IMG/VR virus record: IMGVR_UViG_3300022752_000019
Span: 1-64,000 of that record
Length of the DNA: 64,000 nt
Reading direction: 5' to 3' (one strand)
Source of the DNA: a virus
Shown here: one piece after another, positions 37,771-64,000 of the stretch
Numbering within the stretch: the stretch's first letter is position 1
Layout of the letters: each line of letters starts with the position of its first letter
Position numbers and translations under genes: made by a program
Notes under the pieces: generated by a model
Databases searched by the model: none
What the model saw: the letters and a program-made list of their open reading frames with translations, nothing else
Told to the model about the DNA's origin: nothing

Positions 37771-38898
37771 TCAGAAGACGTTGATGCTCGGGAAGGTCAG
37801 ACCCTCGGCGACCTTGTTGTTGAGTGCGCCGATGGCGGACTCTTCGACAGGGCGCACGGCCGAACCGCTCGCGTGGGTAGCGTCACCAGGGTAGAGCTCG
37901 AGCTTCACCACCGCAGCGATGTTGCCGAAGCCCATACCGACGTCCATCCAGGCCTGCCAGAAGATTCGGTTCGCCACCTTGTCGATGTAGAACTTCACAT
38001 CGTTCAGGGTGTAGTTGCGGCCGAAGAACTCCGGAGCCGTGAAGACGTAGACGTTCCCCTCGCGGAGAATGTCGTTCTTGATGGTGCGGATGATGCGGAG
38101 GCCGAGGACCTTGTTGTAGGTGTAGCCGTCCAGGGCGGTCTCGCTCTGGAGACGATCACCATAGTCCTCGTGGGTCCACTGGTCGAAATCGTCCGTGTCA
38201 GACTCAGTCATGAGCATGAGCGCGGGACGAAGACGGCCAGCGCGGATGGTCTCCGAGCCGACGACGATCTGGCGCTTGAGGAGCTTCTTGATGTTCACGA
38301 TGTCAGCGCGCTGAATCGCGTACGTCTCGAAGTCCGTTTGCCCACCGCCCGACTGGGTGGCGAGCACGCCCTTGATCTTCGAGATCGACACACCCGTGCC
38401 GACGTAGAATGCAGAGGAGCCGGAGTTGCCCTCAGCCTGCATGGCGTCGATGCAGGACTCAACGTGGTTCAGGAACTCGCGGTCCTTCACCTCGACCATG
38501 TCCTTGAGCGAGTTCTCCTCGATGATGCGCGTGATCGGCATCTCGTAGGCCATCAGCTCCTGCTCAACGATCTCGAACTTGAGGGACGAGATGGTGAAGA
38601 AGCCGATCGCGTACCGCTTGCCGTTCACGTACTCAGCGGTGGGCTGCCCACGGAAGTTGACGGACATCGCCCGGCTGCCCGGCTCAATGTCGACGATCTT
38701 CACGAGGGTGTCGTGCTCGGTGCTGCGCTGAAGGTCGCCACGCACAACACGCTCGTTCGGGACGATCATGTCGGCAAAGCTGGACTCGCGTAGGCGGTCC
38801 TTGATGTAGTTCAGGCTGGCGGCGGCGGTCTTCGTCGGTCCCTCAGTCTCGAGGCGCTCGATGAAGCCCGAGTTCACCATATCGGCAGAGTAGTCCAT
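37771..38898 (-). CDS. major capsid protein
   Basis: 375 aa, extreme codon bias, downstream of protease/scaffold genes, followed by terminator; KTA at residues 23-25. Confidence 0.75.
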   Translation of the reverse strand: MDYSADMVNSGFIERLETEGPTKTAAASLNYIKDRLRESSFADMIVPNERVVRGDLQRSTEHDTLVKIVDIEPGSRAMSVNFRGQPTAEYVNGKRYAIGFFTISSLKFEIVEQELMAYEMPITRIIEENSLKDMVEVKDREFLNHVESCIDAMQAEGNSGSSAFYVGTGVSISKIKGVLATQSGGGQTDFETYAIQRADIVNIKKLLKRQIVVGSETIRAGRLRPALMLMTESDTDDFDQWTHEDYGDRLQSETALDGYTYNKVLGLRIIRTIKNDILREGNVYVFTAPEFFGRNYTLNDVKFYIDKVANRIFWQAWMDVGMGFGNIAAVVKLELYPGDATHASGSAVRPVEESAIGALNNKVAEGLTFPSINVF

Positions 38899-48138: not shown

Positions 48139-48172
48139 GACTGACGCCCTGGCTTCGGCCAGGGCGTCAGTC
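48139..48172. terminator. hairpin between convergent genes
   Basis: 15-bp stem GACTGACGCCCTGGC-TTCG-GCCAGGGCGTCAGTC. Confidence 0.7.
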
Positions 48173-51100
48173 CGTATCCAACTCTTTGTCAATTTTAGCA
48201 CTTGGAACGATGATGTCCGGCCTCGGATTGTCAATCATCGATACGACAAAGCAAAGCAGCAGCGCGTGAAAGCTGTCGTCTGTCGTATTGGGAGACTTCT
48301 TGTACTCCGTCATGCGCGTCCTCTCGTTGTACTCGGAGAAGATCGCAAGCATGTCAGAGCCAAAAGGACTACCAAACTCAGACCACTTCGGGAACCGGAA
48401 CACAGAGCGACGCTTGATGGCGTTGAACACCGCGCTCATGACTTCGGAACGATGAATCAAGAAGCGGCCCTTCGCCGAATCGAACTGCATGATCGTCTTT
48501 GGGGTCGAGTACTGATACCGGACGACTCGCTGTGATCCGTACAGCCTCAGCAGCTCATCGTTGGGCCAGTATCCTCCGCCGTAGTCCACTCCGACTCGAG
48601 TGACCTCAAAGGCCGCAAGAAGCTTCTTGATCTTCTCGATTTGCTGCTTCGGCTCTGCTTCTGCGCCAGAGAATCGGTGCGCAAAGATGATGCGAAAGAA
48701 CCCTTCGATGTACGCGCCGATCATCACGATCGTGTACGAGTTGTTTGAGTCCTGTCCCCAGTCAATCCCAGCGTACACCTGCTTGCCGCGAATTTTGGGC
48801 ATGATCTCTTTTAGCTTCTCTGCCTTAAACGAGAAGTCGGGATCACAGCAGGACTGGACATCGCCCTGAGTCAGCGGGCGCTGCCCGGAGTCAAAGCTTG
48901 CTCCCAGCACCTCGTTGTAGAACTTGGCTCGAGGGTATTGGTTGTACTTCGTGAGGATGTTGCTCCACTCAAGCCAGGGCACCATCAACTGCGGAATGCG
49001 GAAGCCCTCGAACACATCGAACTTTGGGTTCGGGTTTCCCGTGCGCACCCACTGGGCCATTGGATGATCTGGCCGAATGACCTCTCCGCACTTGTCGCAA
49101 GAGAGGCCACGGATGCCAATGTTTCGCTCCCCCAGGATGTTCCAGTGCCACGACCCGGGGTTGTTGGGCAGCCCGTGTCTCTCACACGGAACTGCCCACT
49201 CGTTCTGCGTAGAGTACGCGTCCCAGTAGACTTGGATCGAGTTGTCCAGGCTCTTTGGAGTGCCGCTATAGATGAACCACTTGAACGGGCTGTGAGAAGC
49301 TGCCTCCTCGATGACGGGGATGTTGTCCAGCAGCAAGTCCTGAAACTCGTCCATGCAGATCAGGTCTGCCGAGAGTCCGCGGCACCTGTCTGCATTGAGG
49401 AACGCATACCGAAGTTTGATCTCACTTCGGTTGATCGCCTTCTTCTCAAAGACGTTGTCCGTCAGATGCTGCGGGAACCAAGTCTTGAGGTCAGGGCAAG
49501 TCTCCAGCGGCTCCTTGAGGCGCGTCTTGGAAAACTCCTTGGTCTGTTGACTGGACGGAGAGACGTAGAGGATGCGGAAGTGCGGAATCAGACAAGCGTA
49601 AGAGAGCGTCTTGTTTCCCAGCGTGGTGCTGTTGTGCGTAAAGAGTGCTCCTGCAACAAAGTTGTGGTGTCCACGCACTGTCAGGTCAAAGCACCACTGC
49701 TCTCCTACATTCACAACCTCCTCAACTTCGTCCCAATAAATATCGGAGCGAAGATGAGCGCGAAGTAGGGCTACTTTCTCTGCGTCATACCGAACATCTC
49801 CCTCAAAAAAGACGACGAATTCTTCGAGCTTCTTCCGGGTAAGCGTGTACTTCGCCCGTGGGAGGCGCTCGATTCCGGCGGCACGCAAGGTTCTGTCGCC
49901 CTTCGTGGGCCGCACCGAGTTGTAGATGTCTCGGACAATGTGAGTCACCTCCTCCGGATACGTGTCACGATTGGAGTTGGTGTCCCAGTTGGCGAGGTCC
50001 TGTCGCTCAATCTTCCCCAGAGCGCCGATCTCACGCACAAACGCCCGGACCCCATCCTGAGTCTCCACACGAAGAATAAATGCGACCTTTTCTTCTCCGC
50101 GCCTCTTATAGATCGCGGGCCAGTTCTTTCGAATGGAAGACGGAATTCCGAACTTCCACAGCAGGGCCTGGATCTGTCGAATCATGGTGTGCGACATCGA
50201 GCAGTACTCGATGGACCACTTTGAGGTCGTGTCTTGCTTTACATGCCCATCAGTCGCCCATAGTCGATTCAAAAACAGCGCAGTCTGGGGGCGCGAGAGA
50301 TGAAAGACCCATTTCGGGATGAACTTGGTGTAGGAGGTCTTCCCCAGGAGGTCGTCTTCTTCAAACCAGTCGTAGAGCTTCTGGGCGCGGTACTTCGGAA
50401 GCCGGAGAGCTACTGCCTCTGTTCCCGGTTTGTCCGAAACACCGTAGGTCATCCCCTCCAGTGCCAACTCATTGATAAAGTCGGACAGTACTACATCTGT
50501 CGCGTTCGTGAACGACATTCCAGATGAAGAACAATGGCCGTCTCCGAGCATGAACGCCGTGAGCTTGACCCGAGAGTCTGGCTGCGCAGAATCGGCGAAC
50601 TCCCCCGCACGCCGCACGACTGCGATCCGGTCTCCTACGCGTACATTTCCCGCATCACGCCAACCACCCCATCTGCGGATGGGGTGGGTCGTTGCAAGCG
50701 TGGCCTCATGTCCTTGCCGGGTACGAACACGAACACAGGGCTTGCTGTATCGAGCCGACTTCCAGGTCACCTCAGACGAAGTGGCTAAGTGCCCACTCCC
50801 GAGCTCTACTCCCGGCGCCACCTCGTCAGTGTTGAGACAAACAAGGCGGTCCCCGGGCTGGACGTCCTTGATCGGAACGTGTTGGCCGGTCGAAAGGAGG
50901 ACAAGCTCGTCCTCGTGAACCGTTTTTTCCACCTGTCTTCCGCACATGAGAAGTACGCGCGGAGACTGAATGTCGTAGATCTGTCGAAGGTAACGGCGCT
51001 CTGCGAATGAGAAGTTCTCCAACTGCCGTGTATGTGGGTTGGGCATCATCATCGTCGTCTCGATGAACTGAGACGGCGTCAGAGGGATCTGCGCGTTGCG

Positions 51101-51187
51101 CAGATCCTGCTCGGAGATCTTTACTGTGTCTCCTCGTGGAGCGGCGTAGTCCCATGGACCTGCCAGGAGGGAGTTAGAAAAACTCAC
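48167..51187 (-). CDS. terL: terminase large subunit (intein-containing)
   Basis: Walker A GRQVEK|ST, RCRGLSADLICMDEFQD, SGTP, nuclease GIDWG and DDSFHA. Confidence 0.9.
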   Translation of the reverse strand: MSFSNSLLAGPWDYAAPRGDTVKISEQDLRNAQIPLTPSQFIETTMMMPNPHTRQLENFSFAERRYLRQIYDIQSPRVLLMCGRQVEKTVHEDELVLLSTGQHVPIKDVQPGDRLVCLNTDEVAPGVELGSGHLATSSEVTWKSARYSKPCVRVRTRQGHEATLATTHPIRRWGGWRDAGNVRVGDRIAVVRRAGEFADSAQPDSRVKLTAFMLGDGHCSSSGMSFTNATDVVLSDFINELALEGMTYGVSDKPGTEAVALRLPKYRAQKLYDWFEEDDLLGKTSYTKFIPKWVFHLSRPQTALFLNRLWATDGHVKQDTTSKWSIEYCSMSHTMIRQIQALLWKFGIPSSIRKNWPAIYKRRGEEKVAFILRVETQDGVRAFVREIGALGKIERQDLANWDTNSNRDTYPEEVTHIVRDIYNSVRPTKGDRTLRAAGIERLPRAKYTLTRKKLEEFVVFFEGDVRYDAEKVALLRAHLRSDIYWDEVEEVVNVGEQWCFDLTVRGHHNFVAGALFTHNSTTLGNKTLSYACLIPHFRILYVSPSSQQTKEFSKTRLKEPLETCPDLKTWFPQHLTDNVFEKKAINRSEIKLRYAFLNADRCRGLSADLICMDEFQDLLLDNIPVIEEAASHSPFKWFIYSGTPKSLDNSIQVYWDAYSTQNEWAVPCERHGLPNNPGSWHWNILGERNIGIRGLSCDKCGEVIRPDHPMAQWVRTGNPNPKFDVFEGFRIPQLMVPWLEWSNILTKYNQYPRAKFYNEVLGASFDSGQRPLTQGDVQSCCDPDFSFKAEKLKEIMPKIRGKQVYAGIDWGQDSNNSYTIVMIGAYIEGFFRIIFAHRFSGAEAEPKQQIEKIKKLLAAFEVTRVGVDYGGGYWPNDELLRLYGSQRVVRYQYSTPKTIMQFDSAKGRFLIHRSEVMSAVFNAIKRRSVFRFPKWSEFGSPFGSDMLAIFSEYNERTRMTEYKKSPNTTDDSFHALLLCFVVSMIDNPRPDIIVPSAKIDKELDTD
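49631..50923 (-). mobile_element. 431 aa intein with LAGLIDADG homing endonuclease
   Basis: Begins TVHEDELV, block B TTHP, AFMLGDG and LWATDG, block F CFDLTV..HNF, ends THN|S. Confidence 0.9.
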
Positions 51188-57655: not shown

Positions 57656-58762
57656 TCAATCGGCTTCGAGCACGGTTGACAGGAACGGACTTCGAGTAGC
57701 GAGAGACGCTACGATATCACTAAGAAGCGCGTCTGTCGCAGGAGTAGCAGGAATGCCGAGAGACGCCAGGGCACCCTTAATCTCGGTGAGCGAGTCTTGT
57801 AGCTTCCCGAGAAAGTCTGTGCCCAGTAGGACAGGCTGAGATTCCGAACCAGAATTACTTGTGATTCGGATTTTCCCATCCAGTGTTACTCGCGCGTCTC
57901 CCTTACGTGCGATTTCGCACACAAACGATCGACTTGCGCTCTCGTCTGCGCTCTCATCTGGACACACGCTGAATCGGTAGACCACTGCCGCCGTATCGAA
58001 AGACGCCGGCTTCTTCATCGTGACGACCAGTGGAGTGAGGACTCCGAGTTCTCCCTCCACCTGTAGTGTGACTGGAGTATCGACCAGTGCCGGGACTGCG
58101 ATCGGCCCGTCGAGCTCAAGACGACTTAGTGCTCCGCTTGCGGGGTCGCGGATTGATCCAGCCTCAGAGCTGACTGTCCATCCTCCTGAGTTGACGTACT
58201 CCCTGGCTCTGAAAGTATACGCACACGTCAGGTCTCCGAACGCATCTTCCTCTCTGCCATAGGACTTCCACTCCATTGAGCCGCCGAACGTCTCGACTTT
58301 CCAATTCTCTGCAATTGTTAGGATCTGGTTGATGAATGGATTTGTGACGATGCGGGATAGAGCGGTCCCGCGGAACTCAGTCACACCACCTCTACGCGCG
58401 ATGATCCCATTCCCATCCCGGGTCAGGATCGCCATGTCTCCTGGGGAGAGGTAGGGTCTTCCTGAATGATAGGAGCCGGGCTGCCCGTCCTGCGTGGCAG
58501 CGGAGGGCTGAGGTGCTGACAACAGCAAGAACGCCCCAGCACCGTCCGAAGGCGCGCAGACGAAGCACAGAGCGCCCACCTCGGGCATGTAGTGAATCCC
58601 CTCCCCCGACGGAGTCGAGTAGAGAGAGGGGATGATGACGTTGGTAAACTCCCTCTTTACCGTGTCGCAGTAGACCACACAGGTCCAGCGTGCCGAATCG
58701 ACGAGAACAACTCGGCCCTGAAGGACTGTGGGTTGCGATGGCCGTAGAGGCTTACTCGTCAT
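57656..58762 (-). CDS. baseplate spike/hub protein (gp5/gpV-like)
   Basis: N-terminal OB-fold pattern GRVV..GIHYMPEVGALCFV followed by beta-strand repeats. Confidence 0.55.
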   Translation of the reverse strand: MTSKPLRPSQPTVLQGRVVLVDSARWTCVVYCDTVKREFTNVIIPSLYSTPSGEGIHYMPEVGALCFVCAPSDGAGAFLLLSAPQPSAATQDGQPGSYHSGRPYLSPGDMAILTRDGNGIIARRGGVTEFRGTALSRIVTNPFINQILTIAENWKVETFGGSMEWKSYGREEDAFGDLTCAYTFRAREYVNSGGWTVSSEAGSIRDPASGALSRLELDGPIAVPALVDTPVTLQVEGELGVLTPLVVTMKKPASFDTAAVVYRFSVCPDESADESASRSFVCEIARKGDARVTLDGKIRITSNSGSESQPVLLGTDFLGKLQDSLTEIKGALASLGIPATPATDALLSDIVASLATRSPFLSTVLEAD

Positions 58763-59182
58763 TCAGCGGTCCGACGAAGGGCGGCCCAGCAGATATCCAG
58801 TTCCAAGAGCCCCAGCACCCAGCGCCCCAGCTCCGAGAGTTCCGGCTCCAATAAGAGCCGCCGTGTCTCTATTGGCAGCAACTCCATCTGATGCGCGGGT
58901 CAGCGCCTTGCCGAGTGTTTCACGCACTCCTCCGGCAGTAGCCCCTCCCGATAGCATTCTGCCCAGACCACCGGCTGCATTTCCGACTGCGTCGCCGACC
59001 GCAGCTAAGCCGCGTCCTGTCGCCGATAGAACAGCCTCTTTCTGCATGTGTGCGTCGAATGCTCGAAGATAAGCTTCCGGCATCTGCCCGTCGCAAGTGC
59101 CAAAATTTCTGATGATGAACTCTGCACGCTTTTCTTGTTCCACGAGTTGAAGAGCAACCCGATACGCTGCAATCTTGTTCAC
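58763..59182 (-). CDS. glycine-rich head cargo protein
   Basis: MNKIAAY leader, QKEA, GAGTLGAGALGAGALGTGYLLG. Confidence 0.7.
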   Translation of the reverse strand: MNKIAAYRVALQLVEQEKRAEFIIRNFGTCDGQMPEAYLRAFDAHMQKEAVLSATGRGLAAVGDAVGNAAGGLGRMLSGGATAGGVRETLGKALTRASDGVAANRDTAALIGAGTLGAGALGAGALGTGYLLGRPSSDR

Positions 59183-59191
59183 GAGGGCCTC

Positions 59192-62100
59192 TCAGAAAAA
59201 GGAAAGAAAACCAGAGGTTTTTCTCTCGGAGGGAGTTGTTGGGGCAGGCTTTCCAGGCAAAGTTGCCTTCGGCACGTTCACCATTCTATCAGGAACGCCC
59301 GGGGCGTTCGGAAGCTTAACAGCGCCCGGGGGCTCTAATCCGAACTCGGCTCCGTGCGCGATTCCCGCGATCGGATGGCCGTGGATGTCAGACTTCCAGT
59401 TTTGAGCAGCACCTTCGACGTAGGTCTCCTCGAGGCGCTGGAAGTTCAGGCGAGCCATCCAGTCCTCCTGACCGGCCAGCGGCATCTTGTTCATCGCCTT
59501 GAGCTGTGGCGTGTGCTTGATCTCGCGCTTGTTCATGGAGCGAAGCTCCTTGTTTTTGCGCTCAATCTCCGACATGGGAACAAGTTGCCCACGCAAGTAT
59601 GCGTGATCGTCGCCAGGGTCATCTACCCGAGTAAGGTCCGTCATTGCGCGAATGACGGTCTCGATGTTCCTACGACGCTCGTTGCCGGTCGTCTCGACGT
59701 ATAGCTCGTTGAGGCTGTCCGCGATGTGCGTGCGAACCGCGCCCATGTTCTTCGTGATGGCAAGGATGTCGTGCGGGTTCTTTCTCCCCTCAGAGAGGGC
59801 CTCTGCCTTGTCGACTTCAACTCCAACTCGGATCGAGGGGAGAAGCGGACTTGTGAACGGAACGACGTGCTGTTTCCCGTCAATGGTGACAATCTTTCCG
59901 CCGAGCGCGTCGTTTTCGATCTTCTCGACCTTGCCCGCAACGGTAGATAGGACTGCTGCTCCCTTGAGCTTCTTGGGAACCTTGAACAAGTCCTCGGCAG
60001 CGGTGAAGTAGTCGCCCACGCCGCTTGTCCCTCCGACACCTCCGGTGTGGAAGGTGCGCATCTGCATCTGCGTGATGGGCTCGCCGAGTGCGTGGCCTGC
60101 GATGATGCCAACGTTTGTGCCGATTGGGTATAGGGAGCCGCGCTCACTGAGTCCGTAGCAAGTGGCGCAGATCCCCTTGACCTCGTTGCAGTGGAGGGGA
60201 GAGCGAACAAGGATCTTCTTCGGCCCGTCGTTCTTGATCTTGGAACGGATCTGCGGAGTGATGAGCGTTCCCTTGGGAATGGCCTCCCCTCCCTTGAGCG
60301 GAACTTCTCCGGCAAGGAAGCGCCCCTCGATGTCTGCCTCCATCGAAGAAAGCAGCGCACCGCGAATCGTTCCGCAGTCCTTCGACTTGATCGTGTTGTC
60401 GATGACGGTGTTGATGAGCTCCTTGGTCAGCGCACCAGGCTTGGCCGTTGCCGAGGCGCGATCGATGGTTCCTTTCCGAGCACCATGCAGCGACGCATAG
60501 TACTGCGAGACTGGAAGTCCCTCTCCAAAGGACTTGGTGATGGCAAAAGGCACGGTCTGATTCATCGGATCCTGCACCAGCATGGGCCCCATGACCATCT
60601 GACCGAACTGGTTCCAGTCGCCCTTTGCGCCAGACCGTGCCCAGTCCCACATGCGGTTGTCGAGGCGAGAGTTGTACCTGGCCTCCCCAACCTGCTTCAG
60701 CTCCTTCTGCGCCTTTTGGTACAGCGCGATGATCTTCTCATCCTTCTGCTGCTTGGAGCCCGAACCCTTGAGGATGGAGTCCTCTTCCTTCTTGTACTTG
60801 ACGAGAACCTCGTCCCGAAGCTTGAAACCGTCGTGGAAGTCGTTGATAGATACGCTGGACCCATTCTTGAAGGCAAGGTTGAACCCAATCGTCTTCCACT
60901 GGTCGATCATCTTTGAGAACTCTTCTGGTTCCGCGCGAGCTACACGCGTGGCAAACCGCTTCATGGAGCCTTTCGCCATACGGAAGCTCGGATCGTAGAG
61001 GAGATCCTCATCGCCCTTGAACTGCTGCGGAAGGGTCGCATTAATCATCAACCGACCAGCCGTAGTGGGTTTCTTTAGCCCCTTGACTTTGATGACGTTG
61101 TACGACTTAATCTTGCCAGCCTTCACAGCCTGGATCGCCTGTTCTTCCGTAAATTCTCCCGAAACCGGCTTGCCCCATTCCGTCGCCTGGAAGATGCCGA
61201 GCACCGAGTCCTGGCTCGGAGTCACCATGAGACCTCCACTCGTCGGAGAGAAGAGGTTCTTCGAGGGCATCATGTTCTTGGCTTCTTGTACTGCGGCATC
61301 CGTGATGGGCACGTAGAGGGCCATCGTGTCACCGTCGAAGTCCGCGTTGAAGCCTCCAGTCACGAGGGGATGGATCTTGATGGACTTGCCCTCAATCAGC
61401 CGAGGACGGAAAGCCAAGATTGAGAACAGGTGAAGCGCGGGGTCACGCTTCATCATCGCAGGACGATCGCGGACAACTCTCTCGAGTGCCTCATTTGCGG
61501 CAGGATGGTTCTTCTTGATCATCATACGCGCCTCGCCCGGAGACGTGGCCCGCCCCATGTTGCGCCACAGCTCCTTGATGACGAAGGGCTTGTACATCTC
61601 CATCGCCATCTCTCGAGGGACGCCGACCTCATCAAGCGGCATTTCGGGGTCGGGCGTGATGACCGAACGACCCGAGAGATCTTGACGCTTCCCGAGAACA
61701 CCTGACTGGAAGAACGACTGCTTCGGCTGCCGAAGGCCCGTCATCTTGTCCATGAGGGAAGGGACCTGCTTGCCTTCCATCTGCATGCCGGTGACACGCA
61801 GCGCCTTGGTCGTCTCATAGATCTGTGCCTGGACCTTCTGAATCTCTCCAATCGGCATCTTCTCTTTTTCTGCCTGCTCGAGCTGCTTCACCATCTGCCC
61901 AATGATGGCGTACATCTTGTTCGCAGGGTCGATGATCTGTGTGCCATCGAAGCCAATGCTTACGCGGCGCAGAGAGGGGGGAAGAACAGGCAGGACCTTG
62001 TTGGTGTACGCATCAACCGGCTTGATACCAAGTTCTTTCAGCGCCCGAAGGTAGCGCACCCTCTTGTACGCGACGTTCAGCTCGTTCTCGCTTGCCTCAG

Positions 62101-64000
62101 CAAGCTCTTTCTCGGATGCCTTTAGTTCCTTGTTAACGTCGATGTCCCTTAGCTTCTCCTCGATGATGGCAAAGCCGGACTTCCGTCCAACCGCGCCCGA
62201 CTCGGTCAACAGCTTCTGGAACTCAGGCTTGGGCATCTTGAGGAGTAGGCGAATCGGCTCCTCAAACATGGGGTTGGGAATGCGCACACCCAACTCCATG
62301 TGTGTCCACTTGGTTCCCTCAAGGCCGCCAGTCTTGGCCTTATCGAATAGGCCGCCACGTTCTTCTTTGGTCAAAGAGCCCTTGGCTGCGAGTGTCTTCT
62401 CGGGGAATGCAAGGGCTCCCGAACTCTGGGCAATCGTCTGCTTGTCCGTCATCGGCATGAGCGAGTACTCGCGGCCCTTACGGTCCGTGTAGACGCCCAT
62501 CGCGCGAAGGTAGTGAGTGAACTGCTCCATTGAGCGCGGAACTTTCGGAGGAGGCGGACGCTCTCCACGCATGATGCGTGTCCACACGTCCTCCGCCTGT
62601 TCGCGGTCGGACTTGTAAGTCTGCATCTCACGAAGGTTCTGCTTGGCCCCGTGGGCAAGCAGGGTGTAGGTGTCCAGGCCGCCAATGCGCTGACCGCCCT
62701 CTCCGAGGCCCGATCCCTGTGATGCCTCGCCGGTGGTCTTGTACGCATAGCCGAAGCCGCCAGCACGAGCAGAGATCTTTTTCTCGGCCTGATGGTCCAG
62801 CTTCAGGATGTACTGATGGCCCGTGAGAACCTGTCCCAGGCTCTCGCCTGTCTCCGGATCAAAAAGCTCATCGGTATCGGAGATCTTGTGCTTCTTGAGT
62901 TCCTCCTTGACGAGAGCTGCGTAGTCAGTGCCCGGCTCAAAGTTGTTGATCACGAAAGGCTTGCCGGTCTTGAGGGCAACCTTGCTGACCGCAGTCTCGA
63001 GCACCTGTCCAGGGTTCATACGCGAAGGAATGCCCGCTGGAGACAGCAGGACGTGAACTGGATTACCGTCCTTGTCCTTCGGCATCTTGTCATCGGGCAG
63101 AATCTTAGTAACAATGCCCTTGTTTCCGTGACGACCAGAGAGCTTGTCGCCGACCTCCATGGTCTGCTCGGTGCGAATGAACACGGCGATCTTGCGGCCA
63201 TTGTTCGACACGCGAGCTACGGTTCCGCCGTACTCGTGATCCCAGCGAACGCCTGCATCGGTGTAGTCCTGAATGGCTCCCTTTAGCCGGCGACGGATGT
63301 CCTCGGTATCCTTGGACATGACCTGCTTCTGGAGCTTGGCGATCAGTACGTCACCAGGCTCAACTTTCTGCCCTACGCGGATCACTCCATCGTCGTCGAG
63401 CTTCTGAAGGATCTCTGGGGTCGCCTTGACGGGACCAGCGTACTGACGCCACATCTTCTTGTTGACGACAACGTTCGGGTGCATCTCGGCTTCTGCCGAG
63501 TGCAGATGGCTGGAGATCAACTTCTGCGCGGCTGACTCCGAGATGACGACGCCGTCCTCGAAGTTGTACCCACGGTACGGGATGTACGCGACACGCAGAT
63601 TTGTACCAAGCGCCAGCTTGCCGCCCTTGGTGAAGTTGGAGTCCGCGAGAAGCTGCCCTCTACGAACTTTGTCTCCTACTGCGACCTTGGGCTCCGAGTG
63701 GAGCATGTGCTTCGCGCCGTTGAGCGGGAAGTTCTCATACAGCGCGTGGGTGTACCGCTTCTTATCGTCGCCCTCGACAACAATGCGCTGCTTAGAGACC
63801 TCGATGACTTTACCGTCCGCGTCCGAGGTGATTGCCGCGGTCGCGCCTACGATGTCTTCGTAGGACGCTCCACCGGAAGCCTGGGTCTGAACAAGGGGGG
63901 CCTCTCTTTCGCGAAGTCCTACAGCTTGCTCCTGGTGCTTGGCCGCCATCATTGCGCGGTTGCCGTTGTCGTTTTGGACGAACGGGATCAGGTTCGCGCT
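59192..64000 (-). CDS. DNA-directed RNA polymerase, fused beta-beta' polypeptide (5' truncated by window edge)
   Basis: Beta motifs LIPF..NRAMM, GYNFEDG, GDKLSGRHGNKG, PSRMN; beta' motifs GKRQDLSGRSVI, RDPALH, FNADFDGD, GARKG, GEP..MRTFH in one frame. Confidence 0.95.
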   Translation of the reverse strand, partial: SANLIPFVQNDNGNRAMMAAKHQEQAVGLREREAPLVQTQASGGASYEDIVGATAAITSDADGKVIEVSKQRIVVEGDDKKRYTHALYENFPLNGAKHMLHSEPKVAVGDKVRRGQLLADSNFTKGGKLALGTNLRVAYIPYRGYNFEDGVVISESAAQKLISSHLHSAEAEMHPNVVVNKKMWRQYAGPVKATPEILQKLDDDGVIRVGQKVEPGDVLIAKLQKQVMSKDTEDIRRRLKGAIQDYTDAGVRWDHEYGGTVARVSNNGRKIAVFIRTEQTMEVGDKLSGRHGNKGIVTKILPDDKMPKDKDGNPVHVLLSPAGIPSRMNPGQVLETAVSKVALKTGKPFVINNFEPGTDYAALVKEELKKHKISDTDELFDPETGESLGQVLTGHQYILKLDHQAEKKISARAGGFGYAYKTTGEASQGSGLGEGGQRIGGLDTYTLLAHGAKQNLREMQTYKSDREQAEDVWTRIMRGERPPPPKVPRSMEQFTHYLRAMGVYTDRKGREYSLMPMTDKQTIAQSSGALAFPEKTLAAKGSLTKEERGGLFDKAKTGGLEGTKWTHMELGVRIPNPMFEEPIRLLLKMPKPEFQKLLTESGAVGRKSGFAIIEEKLRDIDVNKELKASEKELAEASENELNVAYKRVRYLRALKELGIKPVDAYTNKVLPVLPPSLRRVSIGFDGTQIIDPANKMYAIIGQMVKQLEQAEKEKMPIGEIQKVQAQIYETTKALRVTGMQMEGKQVPSLMDKMTGLRQPKQSFFQSGVLGKRQDLSGRSVITPDPEMPLDEVGVPREMAMEMYKPFVIKELWRNMGRATSPGEARMMIKKNHPAANEALERVVRDRPAMMKRDPALHLFSILAFRPRLIEGKSIKIHPLVTGGFNADFDGDTMALYVPITDAAVQEAKNMMPSKNLFSPTSGGLMVTPSQDSVLGIFQATEWGKPVSGEFTEEQAIQAVKAGKIKSYNVIKVKGLKKPTTAGRLMINATLPQQFKGDEDLLYDPSFRMAKGSMKRFATRVARAEPEEFSKMIDQWKTIGFNLAFKNGSSVSINDFHDGFKLRDEVLVKYKKEEDSILKGSGSKQQKDEKIIALYQKAQKELKQVGEARYNSRLDNRMWDWARSGAKGDWNQFGQMVMGPMLVQDPMNQTVPFAITKSFGEGLPVSQYYASLHGARKGTIDRASATAKPGALTKELINTVIDNTIKSKDCGTIRGALLSSMEADIEGRFLAGEVPLKGGEAIPKGTLITPQIRSKIKNDGPKKILVRSPLHCNEVKGICATCYGLSERGSLYPIGTNVGIIAGHALGEPITQMQMRTFHTGGVGGTSGVGDYFTAAEDLFKVPKKLKGAAVLSTVAGKVEKIENDALGGKIVTIDGKQHVVPFTSPLLPSIRVGVEVDKAEALSEGRKNPHDILAITKNMGAVRTHIADSLNELYVETTGNERRRNIETVIRAMTDLTRVDDPGDDHAYLRGQLVPMSEIERKNKELRSMNKREIKHTPQLKAMNKMPLAGQEDWMARLNFQRLEETYVEGAAQNWKSDIHGHPIAGIAHGAEFGLEPPGAVKLPNAPGVPDRMVNVPKATLPGKPAPTTPSERKTSGFLSFF

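What the first reader, a model, noticed from the sequence alone, without database searches (positions are those of the whole stretch)
59192..64000. Single-chain beta-beta' RNA polymerase lacking the beta' N-terminal zinc-binding domain
Seen: one open frame carries the beta C-terminal half (GDKLSGRHGNKG about 63130), a direct junction near 62480 (PRSMEQFTHYLRAMGV-..-YSLMPMT..SSG) and all of beta' (NADFDGD 61328-61348, bridge helix, trigger loop, second Zn site). Between GGLFD and HMEL the CxC..CxxC zinc domain of cellular beta' is replaced by about 11 residues. Known: phiKZ and AR9 RNAPs are split into several diverged subunits, and beta-beta' fusions occur in Helicobacter and Wolbachia. Inference: a streamlined, cell-like RNAP captured by the phage. 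Its position in the virion operon suggests it may be packaged.
Basis: partly seen in the sequence, partly recalled or inferred. Interest (0 to 1): 0.7.

Follow-up and report, generated by a model that had tools for sequence, protein, structure and literature searches.

The report
One-chain phage RNA polymerase, zinc finger lost
An uncultured 165-kb phage encodes both large subunits of a bacterial-type RNA polymerase as one 2119-residue protein that lacks a zinc finger found in nearly all sampled bacterial enzymes; with the phage's own sigma factor it may form a two-protein transcription machine, possibly carried inside the virus particle.

Summary
The frame runs past the window end. The whole gene is 59192-65551 (minus strand) and encodes 2119 aa, a complete beta followed directly by a complete beta'.

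- **Zinc sites.** The beta' zinc-binding domain (E. coli C70/C72/C85/C88) is deleted: 13 residues stand where E. coli has 45. The protein's only four cysteines form the second zinc site.
- **Not an artefact.** At least 120 protein clusters, 80 IMG/VR contigs examined and the cultured phages Arash and Vibrio D69 share the junction and the deletion.
- **Not a recent capture.** The clade sits across a long, fully supported branch from 23 bacteria of about a dozen lineages.
- **Partners.** The record shows no alpha, omega or second polymerase. It does encode a sigma70-family protein, which co-occurs with the polymerase in relatives and is predicted to dock on its clamp helices.
- **Context.** The gene lies between the portal gene and other conserved genes of the head and packaging block. 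Arash's homologue was the most-detected protein in virion mass spectrometry, so packaging is plausible but unproven.

The uninterrupted single chain occurs only in metagenomic contigs, and I found no paper describing it. This scan already noted the enzyme elsewhere on this genome.

The parts
59192..64000 (-). In-window part of the RNA polymerase gene: aa 518-2119 plus the stop codon. The full gene is 59192-65551; record coordinates continue the window numbering. Three related features lie beyond the window and cannot be listed as parts. (1) Nt 64001-65551 encode aa 1-517, the beta N-terminal lobes, including the rifampicin-pocket equivalent at aa 356-387 (nt 64391-64486), where E. coli D516, H526 and S531 align with T, N and T. 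(2) The portal gene is at 66328-68394 (-), 688 aa, E 5e-89 to Arash gp204. (3) The sigma70-family gene is at 113885-114718 (-), 277 aa, P0242.
62474..64000 (-). Beta module, in-window part (whole module aa 1-1026). It carries the double-psi barrel with GDKLSGRHGNKG at nt 63116-63151 and the flap region at aa 738-770.
62441..62539 (-). Fusion junction, aa 1005-1037. A beta C-terminal helix is followed by a strand, a G1026-R1027 turn and the first beta' strand. There is no linker, and beta' residues 14-31 of E. coli are absent.
   Evidence: alignment; AF2 model with strands 1020-1025 and 1028-1033, block pLDDT 83-94
62291..62356 (-). Site of the lost zinc-binding domain, aa 1066-1087 (GGLFD, 13 residues, HMEL). 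It contains no cysteine.
61781..61933 (-). Beta' clamp helices, aa 1207-1257, the predicted docking site of the phage sigma.
61328..61348 (-). Catalytic NADFDGD, aa 1402-1408.
60401..60511 (-). Bridge helix, aa 1681-1717.
60158..60376 (-). Second zinc site: C1726, C1788, C1795 and C1798, the only cysteines in the protein.
60023..60112 (-). Trigger loop, aa 1814-1843. Much of the E. coli SI3 insertion is absent.
59195..59374 (-). Variable proline-rich C-terminal tail, aa 2060-2119, ending GFLSFF. It is not conserved beyond close relatives.
57656..58762 (-). Conserved 368-aa gene just downstream of the RNAP, after a 139-aa ORF at 58763-59182. Function unknown.
37771..38898 (-). Major capsid protein homologue, same strand, downstream in the same block.
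   Evidence: tblastn to Arash gp226, E 6e-22
48167..51187 (-). Large terminase (1006 aa), same strand, within the block.

Best explanation
This is the catalytic core of a phage-encoded, bacterial-type RNA polymerase made as one polypeptide.

**Shown from sequence**
- The beta module (aa 1-1026) runs straight into the beta' module (aa 1027-2119).
- All catalytic elements are intact: the beta lysine motif, NADFDGD, the bridge helix, the trigger loop and the second zinc site.
- The zinc-binding domain that lines the RNA exit channel in cellular enzymes is missing.
- No alpha, omega or second polymerase gene was found in the 165-kb record.

**Inferred**
1. Covalent tethering of beta to beta' takes over the assembly role of the alpha dimer.
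2. The phage's own sigma70-family protein (113885-114718) binds the clamp helices. It would direct the enzyme to phage promoters; the TAAA-N15-GGTCATAA motif is a candidate.
3. The gene sits in the head and packaging block between the portal gene and the terminase and capsid genes, so the enzyme would be made late. It would then be packed into the capsid and delivered with the DNA to start early transcription in the next host.
4. Without the zinc-binding domain, the exit channel loses the surface that NusA and put RNA use on bacterial RNAP. The enzyme should then respond differently to hairpin-dependent pausing and termination and to such factors.
5. The rifampicin pocket is substituted at three classic resistance positions, so the enzyme should resist rifampicin.
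For: **Core identity.** Pfam domain order, bacterial beta' as best PDB matches at E 1e-120, and conserved catalytic motifs.

**Real and selected.**
- At least 120 protein clusters of 40-88% identity were found; 98 of them are 2031-2163 aa, and most of the rest are longer forms, several with intein or homing-endonuclease domains.
- 235 IMG/VR stretches match, and the best 80 span the junction in one frame.
- None of 120 homologues has a CxC..CxxC motif, against 20 of 22 bacterial beta'.
- Split forms are rare.

**Junction fold.** The AF2 model of aa 930-1330 has pLDDT 80 and places a confident two-strand hairpin at the join. It resembles the N-terminal part of bacterial beta' (Foldseek probability 1.0, TM 0.52-0.57).

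**No other subunits found.** Searches for alpha, omega, a second two-barrel RNAP or a T7-like RNAP found nothing.

**Sigma.**
- It hits Sigma70_r3 above Pfam's cut-off and r4 just below it, and matches SigA and RpoS in the PDB.
- Homologues occur in Arash and Vibrio D69.
- Homologues also lie on four contigs whose lengths equal those carrying RNAP homologues.
- Predicted complex: ipSAE 0.76 against a best control of 0.00. That mark was reached by 58 of 80 solved complexes and 2 of 110 mismatched pairs. The runs agree in at least 56% of contacts and the partner's pLDDT is at least 70.
- The predicted interface joins clamp helices 1205-1247 to sigma residues 54-100. This pair resembles solved holoenzymes, so the pass shows likeness and not binding.

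**Packaging.** The order portal, RNAP, conserved downstream genes and (where the fetched stretch reaches it) terminase is kept in four relatives with 41-52% RNAP identity, and portal next to the RNAP also in Arash. Arash gp206 gave 3516 spectra, the most of any protein, and gp216 and sigma gp10 were also in the virion preparation (PMC10585845).

**Role of the zinc-binding domain.** It forms part of the RNA exit channel, contacts the NusA S1 domain and most likely anchors put RNA (PMC8632103).

**Promoter motif.** There are 6 TAAA-N14-16-GGTCATAA sites, all on the plus strand; GGTCATAA alone occurs 10 times against 3.2 expected.

**Rifampicin pocket.** E. coli D516, H526 and S531 align with T, N and T.
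Against: - No experiment exists on this phage or on any unsplit member.
- The Arash virion list has 116 proteins, including ribonucleotide reductases and a dNMP kinase, and its authors allow for carry-over of abundant enzymes.
- Arash and D69 make the enzyme as two chains, beta plus beta' N-terminal part and beta' C-terminal part, so they are imperfect stand-ins.
- With only one polymerase, the phage would still need something to transcribe its late genes.
- The record is an estimated 89% complete, so a missing alpha, omega or second RNAP cannot be excluded.
- The sigma could instead serve the host core enzyme.
- The functional effect of losing the zinc-binding domain is inferred from E. coli work only.
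Confidence: 0.6

Rival explanations
1. The same single-chain polymerase is not packaged. It is made during infection and transcribes middle or late phage genes inside the cell, while host RNAP reads the early genes. Its place in the head block would then be historical.
For: - Only one polymerase is encoded, so some enzyme must act after entry as well.
- The Arash virion preparation contains obvious cytoplasmic enzymes, which suggests carry-over.
- No capsid-targeting signal was recognised in the protein. A K-x-[AS]-[SAG] scan gave seven scattered hits with no pattern.
Against: - A gene placed between the portal gene and the other head and packaging genes would be expected to be expressed late, which suits an enzyme loaded for the next round of infection.
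- That position is kept over a wide span of divergence.
- Arash gp206 out-scored the capsid protein in spectra, and the sigma was found with 100% coverage.
Confidence: 0.3
2. The polymerase works without the sigma70-family protein, either alone or with an unrelated phage factor as in phiKZ and AR9. The phage sigma instead redirects the host core enzyme.
For: - Many phages encode sigma factors that act on host RNAP (own knowledge: T4 gp55, SPO1 gp28).
- The predicted docking uses the universal sigma region 2 and clamp-helix contact, so it could equally fit a host core.
Against: - Sigma and the fused polymerase co-occur in all three nearly or fully complete genomes examined, and on four contigs matched by length. 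Their identities fall in step: RNAP 84, 75, 71 and 65% against sigma 81, 72, 59 and 61%.
- Clamp helices and a flap region are retained.
- Arash sigma was found in the same virion preparation as the polymerase.
Confidence: 0.15
3. The fusion or the domain loss is an artefact: a mis-assembly, a chimera with host DNA, or a decaying recently captured host gene.
For: None was found.
Against: - The same continuous frame and the same deletion occur in independent assemblies from JGI, ENA, Logan and NCBI, and in two cultured phage lineages.
- GC content is even across the window, 0.56-0.64.
- Phage genes flank the gene on both sides in conserved order.
- The catalytic residues are intact.
- No bacterial locus exceeds 47% identity in the conserved core.
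Confidence: 0.02

Closest known systems
Salmonella phage Arash gp206 + gp216 with sigma gp10 (PMC10585845), and Vibrio phages D69, D181 and D148
   Same: - They belong to the same clade.
- They share the direct beta-beta' junction and the loss of the zinc-binding domain.
- The portal gene lies just upstream.
- A homologous sigma is present.
- Arash's proteins were detected in a virion preparation.
   Different: - Identity is only about 29%.
- Their gene is cut after the catalytic barrel into a 1525-1527-aa chain and a 606-609-aa chain. In Arash nine genes lie between the two. In D69 the first part ends in a stop followed by a hairpin and T-run, then two small ORFs.
- The published paper annotates subunits but does not describe the fusion or the missing zinc domain.
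Bacterial RNAP core (alpha2-beta-beta'-omega), for example E. coli and B. subtilis
   Same: - Domain order, catalytic motifs, second zinc site, clamp helices and flap region are shared.
- A sigma70-family partner gene is present.
- Identity to E. coli is 29% over 2013 positions.
   Different: - It is a single chain.
- No alpha or omega gene was found.
- The zinc-binding domain is deleted.
- The lineage-specific insertions are absent.
- The clade sits outside the sampled bacterial lineages.
Natural rpoB-rpoC fusions of Helicobacteraceae and Wolbachia (Zakharova 1999 and Lane & Darst 2010, as cited in PMC7483510)
   Same: Beta and beta' are joined head to tail in one polypeptide.
   Different: - Those are cellular enzymes that work with alpha and omega.
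- They are much longer; the H. pylori protein is about 2890 aa (own knowledge).
- None appeared among the 120 best matches of similar length or the 80 nearest genome loci.
- Their sequences were not placed in my tree.
mReC phages (Weinheimer & Aylward 2020, PMC7481178)
   Same: They are uncultured tailed phages with recognisably cell-like beta and beta' that branch apart from cellular enzymes, and their genes sit among structural genes.
   Different: - Every listed mReC that I read has beta and beta' as two proteins (about 920-1563 aa and 900-1300 aa, one listing reversed), and some contigs carry two sets.
- Their capsids match Pfam PF07068, whereas this phage's capsid protein has no Pfam hit.
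- The phylogenetic relation between the two groups was not tested.
Virion RNAPs of crAss-like phages (gp66), phiKZ/AR9 jumbo phages and N4
   Same: They offer a functional analogy: a phage-encoded polymerase carried in the particle for early transcription. crAss gp66 is also a single-chain two-barrel enzyme (PMC7481178 introduction; PMC7598289).
   Different: - crAss gp66 is too diverged to hit the COG beta and beta' HMMs used by the mReC authors (PMC7481178).
- The phiKZ and AR9 enzymes are split into four or five chains, and no sigma factor is found in those phages (PMC7824862).
- N4 vRNAP is T7-like.
Rhizobium phage RHph_Y65 beta' (Kleczkowskaviridae)
   Same: It is a phage-encoded, cell-like beta' with NADFDGD, about 30% identical over aa 1178-1835.
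   Different: It is a separate 1127-aa beta' that keeps the CxC..CxxC zinc-binding domain. The loss is therefore not general to phage enzymes.

Membership tests
Two-barrel (multisubunit-type) DNA-dependent RNA polymerase, bacterial lineage | Beta double-psi barrel with the conserved lysines (GDK..GNKG) | tested here: met
   Rpb2_6 at E 5e-63; GDKLSGRHGNKG at aa 801-812
Two-barrel (multisubunit-type) DNA-dependent RNA polymerase, bacterial lineage | Beta' double-psi barrel with NADFDGD, plus bridge helix and trigger loop | tested here: met
   Rpb1_2 at E 3e-31 and Rpb1_5 at E 2e-24; motif alignment
Two-barrel (multisubunit-type) DNA-dependent RNA polymerase, bacterial lineage | Beta' N-terminal zinc-binding domain (four Cys, E. 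coli 70/72/85/88) | tested here: not met
   A 32-residue gap at beta' 66-97, with no Cys before aa 1726. None of 120 homologues has the motif, against 20 of 22 bacteria.
Two-barrel (multisubunit-type) DNA-dependent RNA polymerase, bacterial lineage | Second zinc site (E. coli C814/C888/C895/C898) | tested here: met
   C1726, C1788, C1795 and C1798 align with it and are kept in relatives
Two-barrel (multisubunit-type) DNA-dependent RNA polymerase, bacterial lineage | Alpha dimer and omega as assembly subunits | tested here: not met
   No RNA_pol_L, RNA_pol_A_bac or Rpb6 match in the 165-kb record, while the controls rang in 14 of 14 genomes. The record is about 89% complete, and use of host alpha was not testable.
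Two-barrel (multisubunit-type) DNA-dependent RNA polymerase, bacterial lineage | Initiation through a sigma70-family factor bound to the clamp helices and flap | tested here: inconclusive
   A sigma gene is present and co-inherited. Predicted docking scored 0.76 against controls of 0.00, but it resembles solved complexes. No biochemistry exists.
Arash/D69-like phage RNAP clade | Direct beta-beta' junction with loss of the zinc-binding domain; monophyly with Arash and D69 | tested here: met
   Alignment; tree with 100% SH-aLRT support
Arash/D69-like phage RNAP clade | Portal gene immediately upstream and a homologous sigma elsewhere in the genome | tested here: met
Arash/D69-like phage RNAP clade | Presence of the polymerase in virions | not testable with these tools
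   Only Arash mass spectrometry exists, and nothing exists for this phage.
mReC (PMC7481178) | Separate beta and beta' genes; T4-type capsid (PF07068) | tested here: not met
   This enzyme is fused. Listed mReC entries are two proteins. The capsid homologue has no Pfam hit.
crAss gp66 / YonO-type single-chain two-barrel RNAPs | Extreme divergence with a DFDxD motif and no hit to cellular beta or beta' profiles | tested here: not met
   Strong Pfam and PDB hits to cellular subunits, and a canonical NADFDGD

The most novel reading that the evidence does not exclude
A self-sufficient bacterial-type holoenzyme built from only two polypeptides, a beta-beta' single chain plus a phage sigma70-family factor. 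It would be packed into the capsid and injected, giving host-independent and rifampicin-resistant early transcription. Among the phage systems reviewed here it would be the only virion-carried polymerase that depends on a sigma70-family factor. Its exit channel, lacking the zinc-binding domain, would make it deaf to host termination and pausing factors.
Probability: 0.35. Interest if true: 0.8.

Novelty: new variant of a known kind. Interest (0 to 1): 0.62.

Why it matters
Cellular RNA polymerases need an alpha dimer to bring beta and beta' together, and in my sample 20 of 22 bacterial beta' carry the four-cysteine N-terminal zinc-binding domain; the other two keep the segment without cysteines. 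This enzyme is a natural, widespread and clearly functional-looking relative that dispenses with both, yet it stays close enough to bacterial RNAP to align residue by residue.

If it is active as one chain plus one sigma, several things follow:
- It would be the smallest bacterial-type holoenzyme I know of.
- It would be a convenient system for structural and single-molecule work.
- It would test directly what the alpha platform and the zinc-binding domain contribute to assembly, pausing, termination and factor binding.
- It could serve as an orthogonal transcription module.

For phage biology, it would add a cell-like, sigma-dependent member to the short list of polymerases that phages carry in their particles. 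The clade appears in hundreds of environmental contigs, but only two-chain forms exist in culture.

Tried and rejected
Continuity rests on independent assemblies instead.

**Searches that gave nothing usable**
- PHROGs and Pfam on the neighbouring genes gave almost nothing apart from the terminase.
- The AF2 model of the 368-aa downstream protein, built from a 5-row alignment, had pLDDT 38.7. It was unusable and was not searched.
- A scan for a capsid-targeting or protease motif (K-x-[AS]-[SAG]) in the polymerase gave seven scattered hits with no pattern.
- Literature searches for a description of a fused phage beta-beta' enzyme of this kind found none. The library lacks most subscription journals, so this is weak evidence of absence.

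**Ideas tested and rejected**
- A group I intron as the cause of the split in Vibrio phage D69. Rfam found none, and the first part ends in a stop followed by a hairpin and T-run.
- Membership of the published mReC set. Every listed entry that I read has two proteins, and the supplements do not mention a fusion.
- A close bacterial donor. The genome scan returned only ordinary bacterial rpoB and rpoC genes, separate wherever both lay within the locus, at 47% identity or less.

**Not done**
- The tree has no archaeal, eukaryotic or Campylobacterota sequences, so rooting and the relation to the Helicobacter fusions were not tested.
Full report
**What is there.** The window is the first 64 kb of a 164,603-bp IMG/VR virus record with an estimated completeness of 89%. 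In the record it continues to an ATG at 65551, giving a 2119-aa protein, P0002.

Pfam reads the beta domains first: Rpb2_2 and Rpb2_3 (weak), Rpb2_6 at E 5e-63, and Rpb2_7. The beta' domains follow: Rpb1_2 at 3e-31, Rpb1_3, Rpb1_4 (weak) and Rpb1_5 at 2e-24. Rpb1_1, the domain that holds the zinc finger, gives no hit. The best solved relatives are bacterial beta' chains (E 1e-120), and their alignments begin only at about E. coli beta' residue 176.

**Anatomy against E. coli.** I aligned P0002 with E. coli RpoB plus RpoC and 19 relatives. P0002 is 29% identical to E. coli over 2013 positions.
- The beta C-terminus (...LRAMGVYTDRKG) joins beta' (REYSLMPMTDKQ...) with no linker. Beta' residues 14-31 are absent.
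- The gap at beta' 66-97 removes C70, C72, C85 and C88. Thirteen residues (KAKTGGLEGTKWT) stand where E. coli has 45.
- The other absent segments are the E. coli lineage-specific insertions: beta 229-358, beta 934-1047, beta' 146-176 and much of beta' 945-1186.
- The protein has only four cysteines, and all four align with the second zinc site.
- The lysine motif, NADFDGD, bridge helix, trigger loop, clamp helices, lid and flap region are present. The rudder is shortened.
- In the rifampicin pocket, D516, H526 and S531 align with T, N and T, in a stretch of equal length between the anchors NPL and LG. From the well-known resistance positions, I infer rifampicin resistance.

An AF2 model of aa 930-1330, built from 45 sequences, has mean pLDDT 80 and values above 90 over most of 1009-1269. 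It puts the join in a two-strand hairpin (strands 1020-1025 and 1028-1033) after the last beta helix. Foldseek matches the model to the N-terminal part of bacterial beta' (probability 1.0, TM 0.52-0.57).

**Is it real and selected?** Yes.
- A search of 5.8 billion proteins lists at least 120 clusters at 40-88% identity. Ninety-eight are 2031-2163 aa; most of the rest are longer forms, several with intein or homing-endonuclease domains. They lie on contigs of up to 220 kb from JGI, ENA, Logan and NCBI.
- Shorter, possibly split forms are a handful, most of them on short contigs where they may simply be cut off by a contig end. After them the list falls to ordinary bacterial beta or beta' at about 30% identity.
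- In IMG/VR, 235 stretches encode a relative, and the best 80 cross the junction in one frame. One of them is an open frame of at least 2328 aa.
- None of 120 homologues carries a CxC..CxxC motif, against 20 of 22 bacterial beta' from about a dozen lineages.
- The two exceptions, a Saccharibacteria MAG and a Patescibacteria-group MAG, keep the segment but without cysteines.
- Rhizobium phage RHph_Y65, a different phage lineage with a cell-like beta', keeps the domain. The loss is therefore a trait of this clade and not of phage enzymes in general.

**Origin.** A scan of 185,579 species genomes found only ordinary bacterial rpoB and rpoC genes, separate wherever both lay within the locus, at 47% identity or less in the most conserved 231 residues. 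I built a maximum-likelihood tree (LG+G4, 1990 columns). It puts the 28 phage sequences, Arash and Vibrio D69 included, on one side of a branch with 100% SH-aLRT support. That branch is about 1.3 substitutions per site from 23 bacteria, and divergence within the phage clade is at least as deep as among the bacterial lineages sampled. The tree is unrooted and lacks archaea, eukaryotes and Campylobacterota. It rules out a recent capture from the sampled lineages and nothing more.

The published mReC clade is similar in spirit. Its tables list beta and beta' as two proteins in every case I read, and the supplements never mention a fusion. This fused clade is therefore not what that paper describes.

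**Relatives in culture.** The nearest annotated phages are Vibrio phages D69, D181 and D148 and Salmonella phage Arash, at about 29% identity. They share the junction and the zinc-domain loss. Their gene, however, is cut after the catalytic barrel into chains of 1525-1527 aa and 606-609 aa. In D69 the first part ends with a stop followed by a hairpin and T-run, and Rfam finds no intron. No record in the phage collection holds the enzyme as one uninterrupted chain.

**Partners.** The record has no match to alpha (two Pfam families) or omega, although the same searches rang in all 14 control genomes. It has no second two-barrel polymerase and no T7-type match, though that last search had no positive control.

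It does encode a 277-aa sigma70-family protein at 113885-114718.
- It hits Sigma70_r3 at 40.3 bits, above the cut-off, and r4 at 21.2 bits, just below.
- It matches SigA and RpoS over regions 2-4 (E 6e-10).
- It is homologous to Arash gp10 (E 3e-22) and to a D69 gene (E 1.5e-17).
- Its 46 homologues include four on contigs whose lengths equal those carrying RNAP homologues. Sigma and RNAP identities fall together.
- A complex prediction of sigma with aa 930-1330 scored ipSAE 0.76 against a best control of 0.00. That mark was reached by 58 of 80 solved complexes and 2 of 110 mismatched pairs. The runs agree in at least 56% of contacts and the partner's pLDDT is at least 70.
- The interface joins the clamp helices (1205-1247) to sigma residues 54-100. 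Sigma-core complexes are solved, so the pass shows that the canonical interface is preserved, not that these two proteins bind.
It occurs six times (spacing N14-16), always on the plus strand. GGTCATAA alone occurs 10 times against 3.2 expected. I did not test it further.

**Context and packaging.** The 688-aa gene just upstream (66328-68394) is the portal homologue (Arash gp204, E 5e-89). Downstream on the same strand lie conserved genes, the large terminase, a homologue of an Arash structural protein and the capsid protein. Four relatives with 41-52% RNAP identity keep the order portal, RNAP, 368-, 418-, 501- and 286-aa genes, with the terminase beyond in the three whose fetched stretch reaches it. 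A polymerase gene placed inside the head and packaging block would be expected to be expressed late, which makes most sense if the enzyme is loaded for the next infection.

In Arash, gp206 was the most-detected protein in virion mass spectrometry (3516 spectra, against 1333 for the capsid protein). Gp216 and sigma gp10 were also present (PMC10585845). That list has 116 proteins, including ribonucleotide reductases, and the authors themselves allow for carry-over. I put packaging at somewhat better than even.

**What losing the zinc-binding domain may mean.** In bacterial RNAP the domain is a wall of the RNA exit channel. It contacts the NusA S1 domain and most likely anchors HK022 put RNA (PMC8632103). 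From my own knowledge, deletion of the domain in E. coli leaves an active enzyme with altered termination and antitermination (King et al. 2004). I therefore infer an active enzyme whose pausing, termination and factor responses differ from the host's. This is untested.

**Verdict.** The family is visible in databases and in two cultured phage groups. The unsplit chain without alpha, omega or the zinc-binding domain, together with its co-inherited sigma, is not described in the papers I could search. A follow-up of this scan on another stretch of the same genome had already noted the one-chain polymerase and sigma. I reached Arash and the sigma independently and took only the promoter motif from that note.

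Noticed in passing
65552-65578 (+) and 65686-66090 (+), just beyond the window end: A TAAA-N15-GGTCATAA site abuts the polymerase start codon and points away from it, toward a 134-aa plus-strand ORF between the portal and RNAP genes. That ORF is conserved, antisense to the block, in three of four distant relatives.
   Followed up: partly
57656-58762 (-): A 368-aa gene lies downstream of the polymerase after a 139-aa ORF. In relatives its orthologue starts at or within about 30 nt of the polymerase stop codon. Two orthologues give sub-threshold Pfam hits to the Phage_base_V injector OB domain (E 0.005 and 0.012), and one hits DUF2345. The AF2 model was too poor to use.
   Followed up: partly
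48167-51187 (-): The large terminase is 1006 aa. The terminase homology covers only aa 520-981. The N-terminal 500 aa hit phrog_9666 and, weakly, a DNA primase family.
   Followed up: no
L076, L080, L081 (bacterial rpoC loci): Beta' from two Saccharibacteria MAGs and one Patescibacteria-group MAG keeps a segment the length of the zinc-binding domain but has no cysteines in it. The four-Cys site is therefore not universal even in bacteria.
   Followed up: partly
P0034, P0038, P0040, P0046, P0048, P0051 and others (RNAP homologues of 2294-2829 aa): Many longer homologues carry LAGLIDADG, homing-endonuclease or intein-splicing Pfam domains. The polymerase gene appears to be a frequent intein target in this clade.
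   Followed up: no
68391-70304 (-), beyond the window: The 637-aa protein upstream of the portal gene, conserved in relatives, has a weak Pre-toxin TG (PF14449) hit at aa 535-563 (E 7e-4).
   Followed up: no
L176 (Rhizobium phage RHph_Y65, 154425-157808): A cultured Kleczkowskaviridae phage encodes a 1127-aa cell-like beta' with an intact zinc-binding domain. The 16 kb examined shows no annotated beta gene next to it.
   Followed up: partly
59195-59374 (-): The polymerase ends in a proline-rich tail of variable length. In close relatives the tail finishes with an aromatic patch (GFLSFF, RFFSFL, FGSFFGG). More distant relatives lack it.
   Followed up: no
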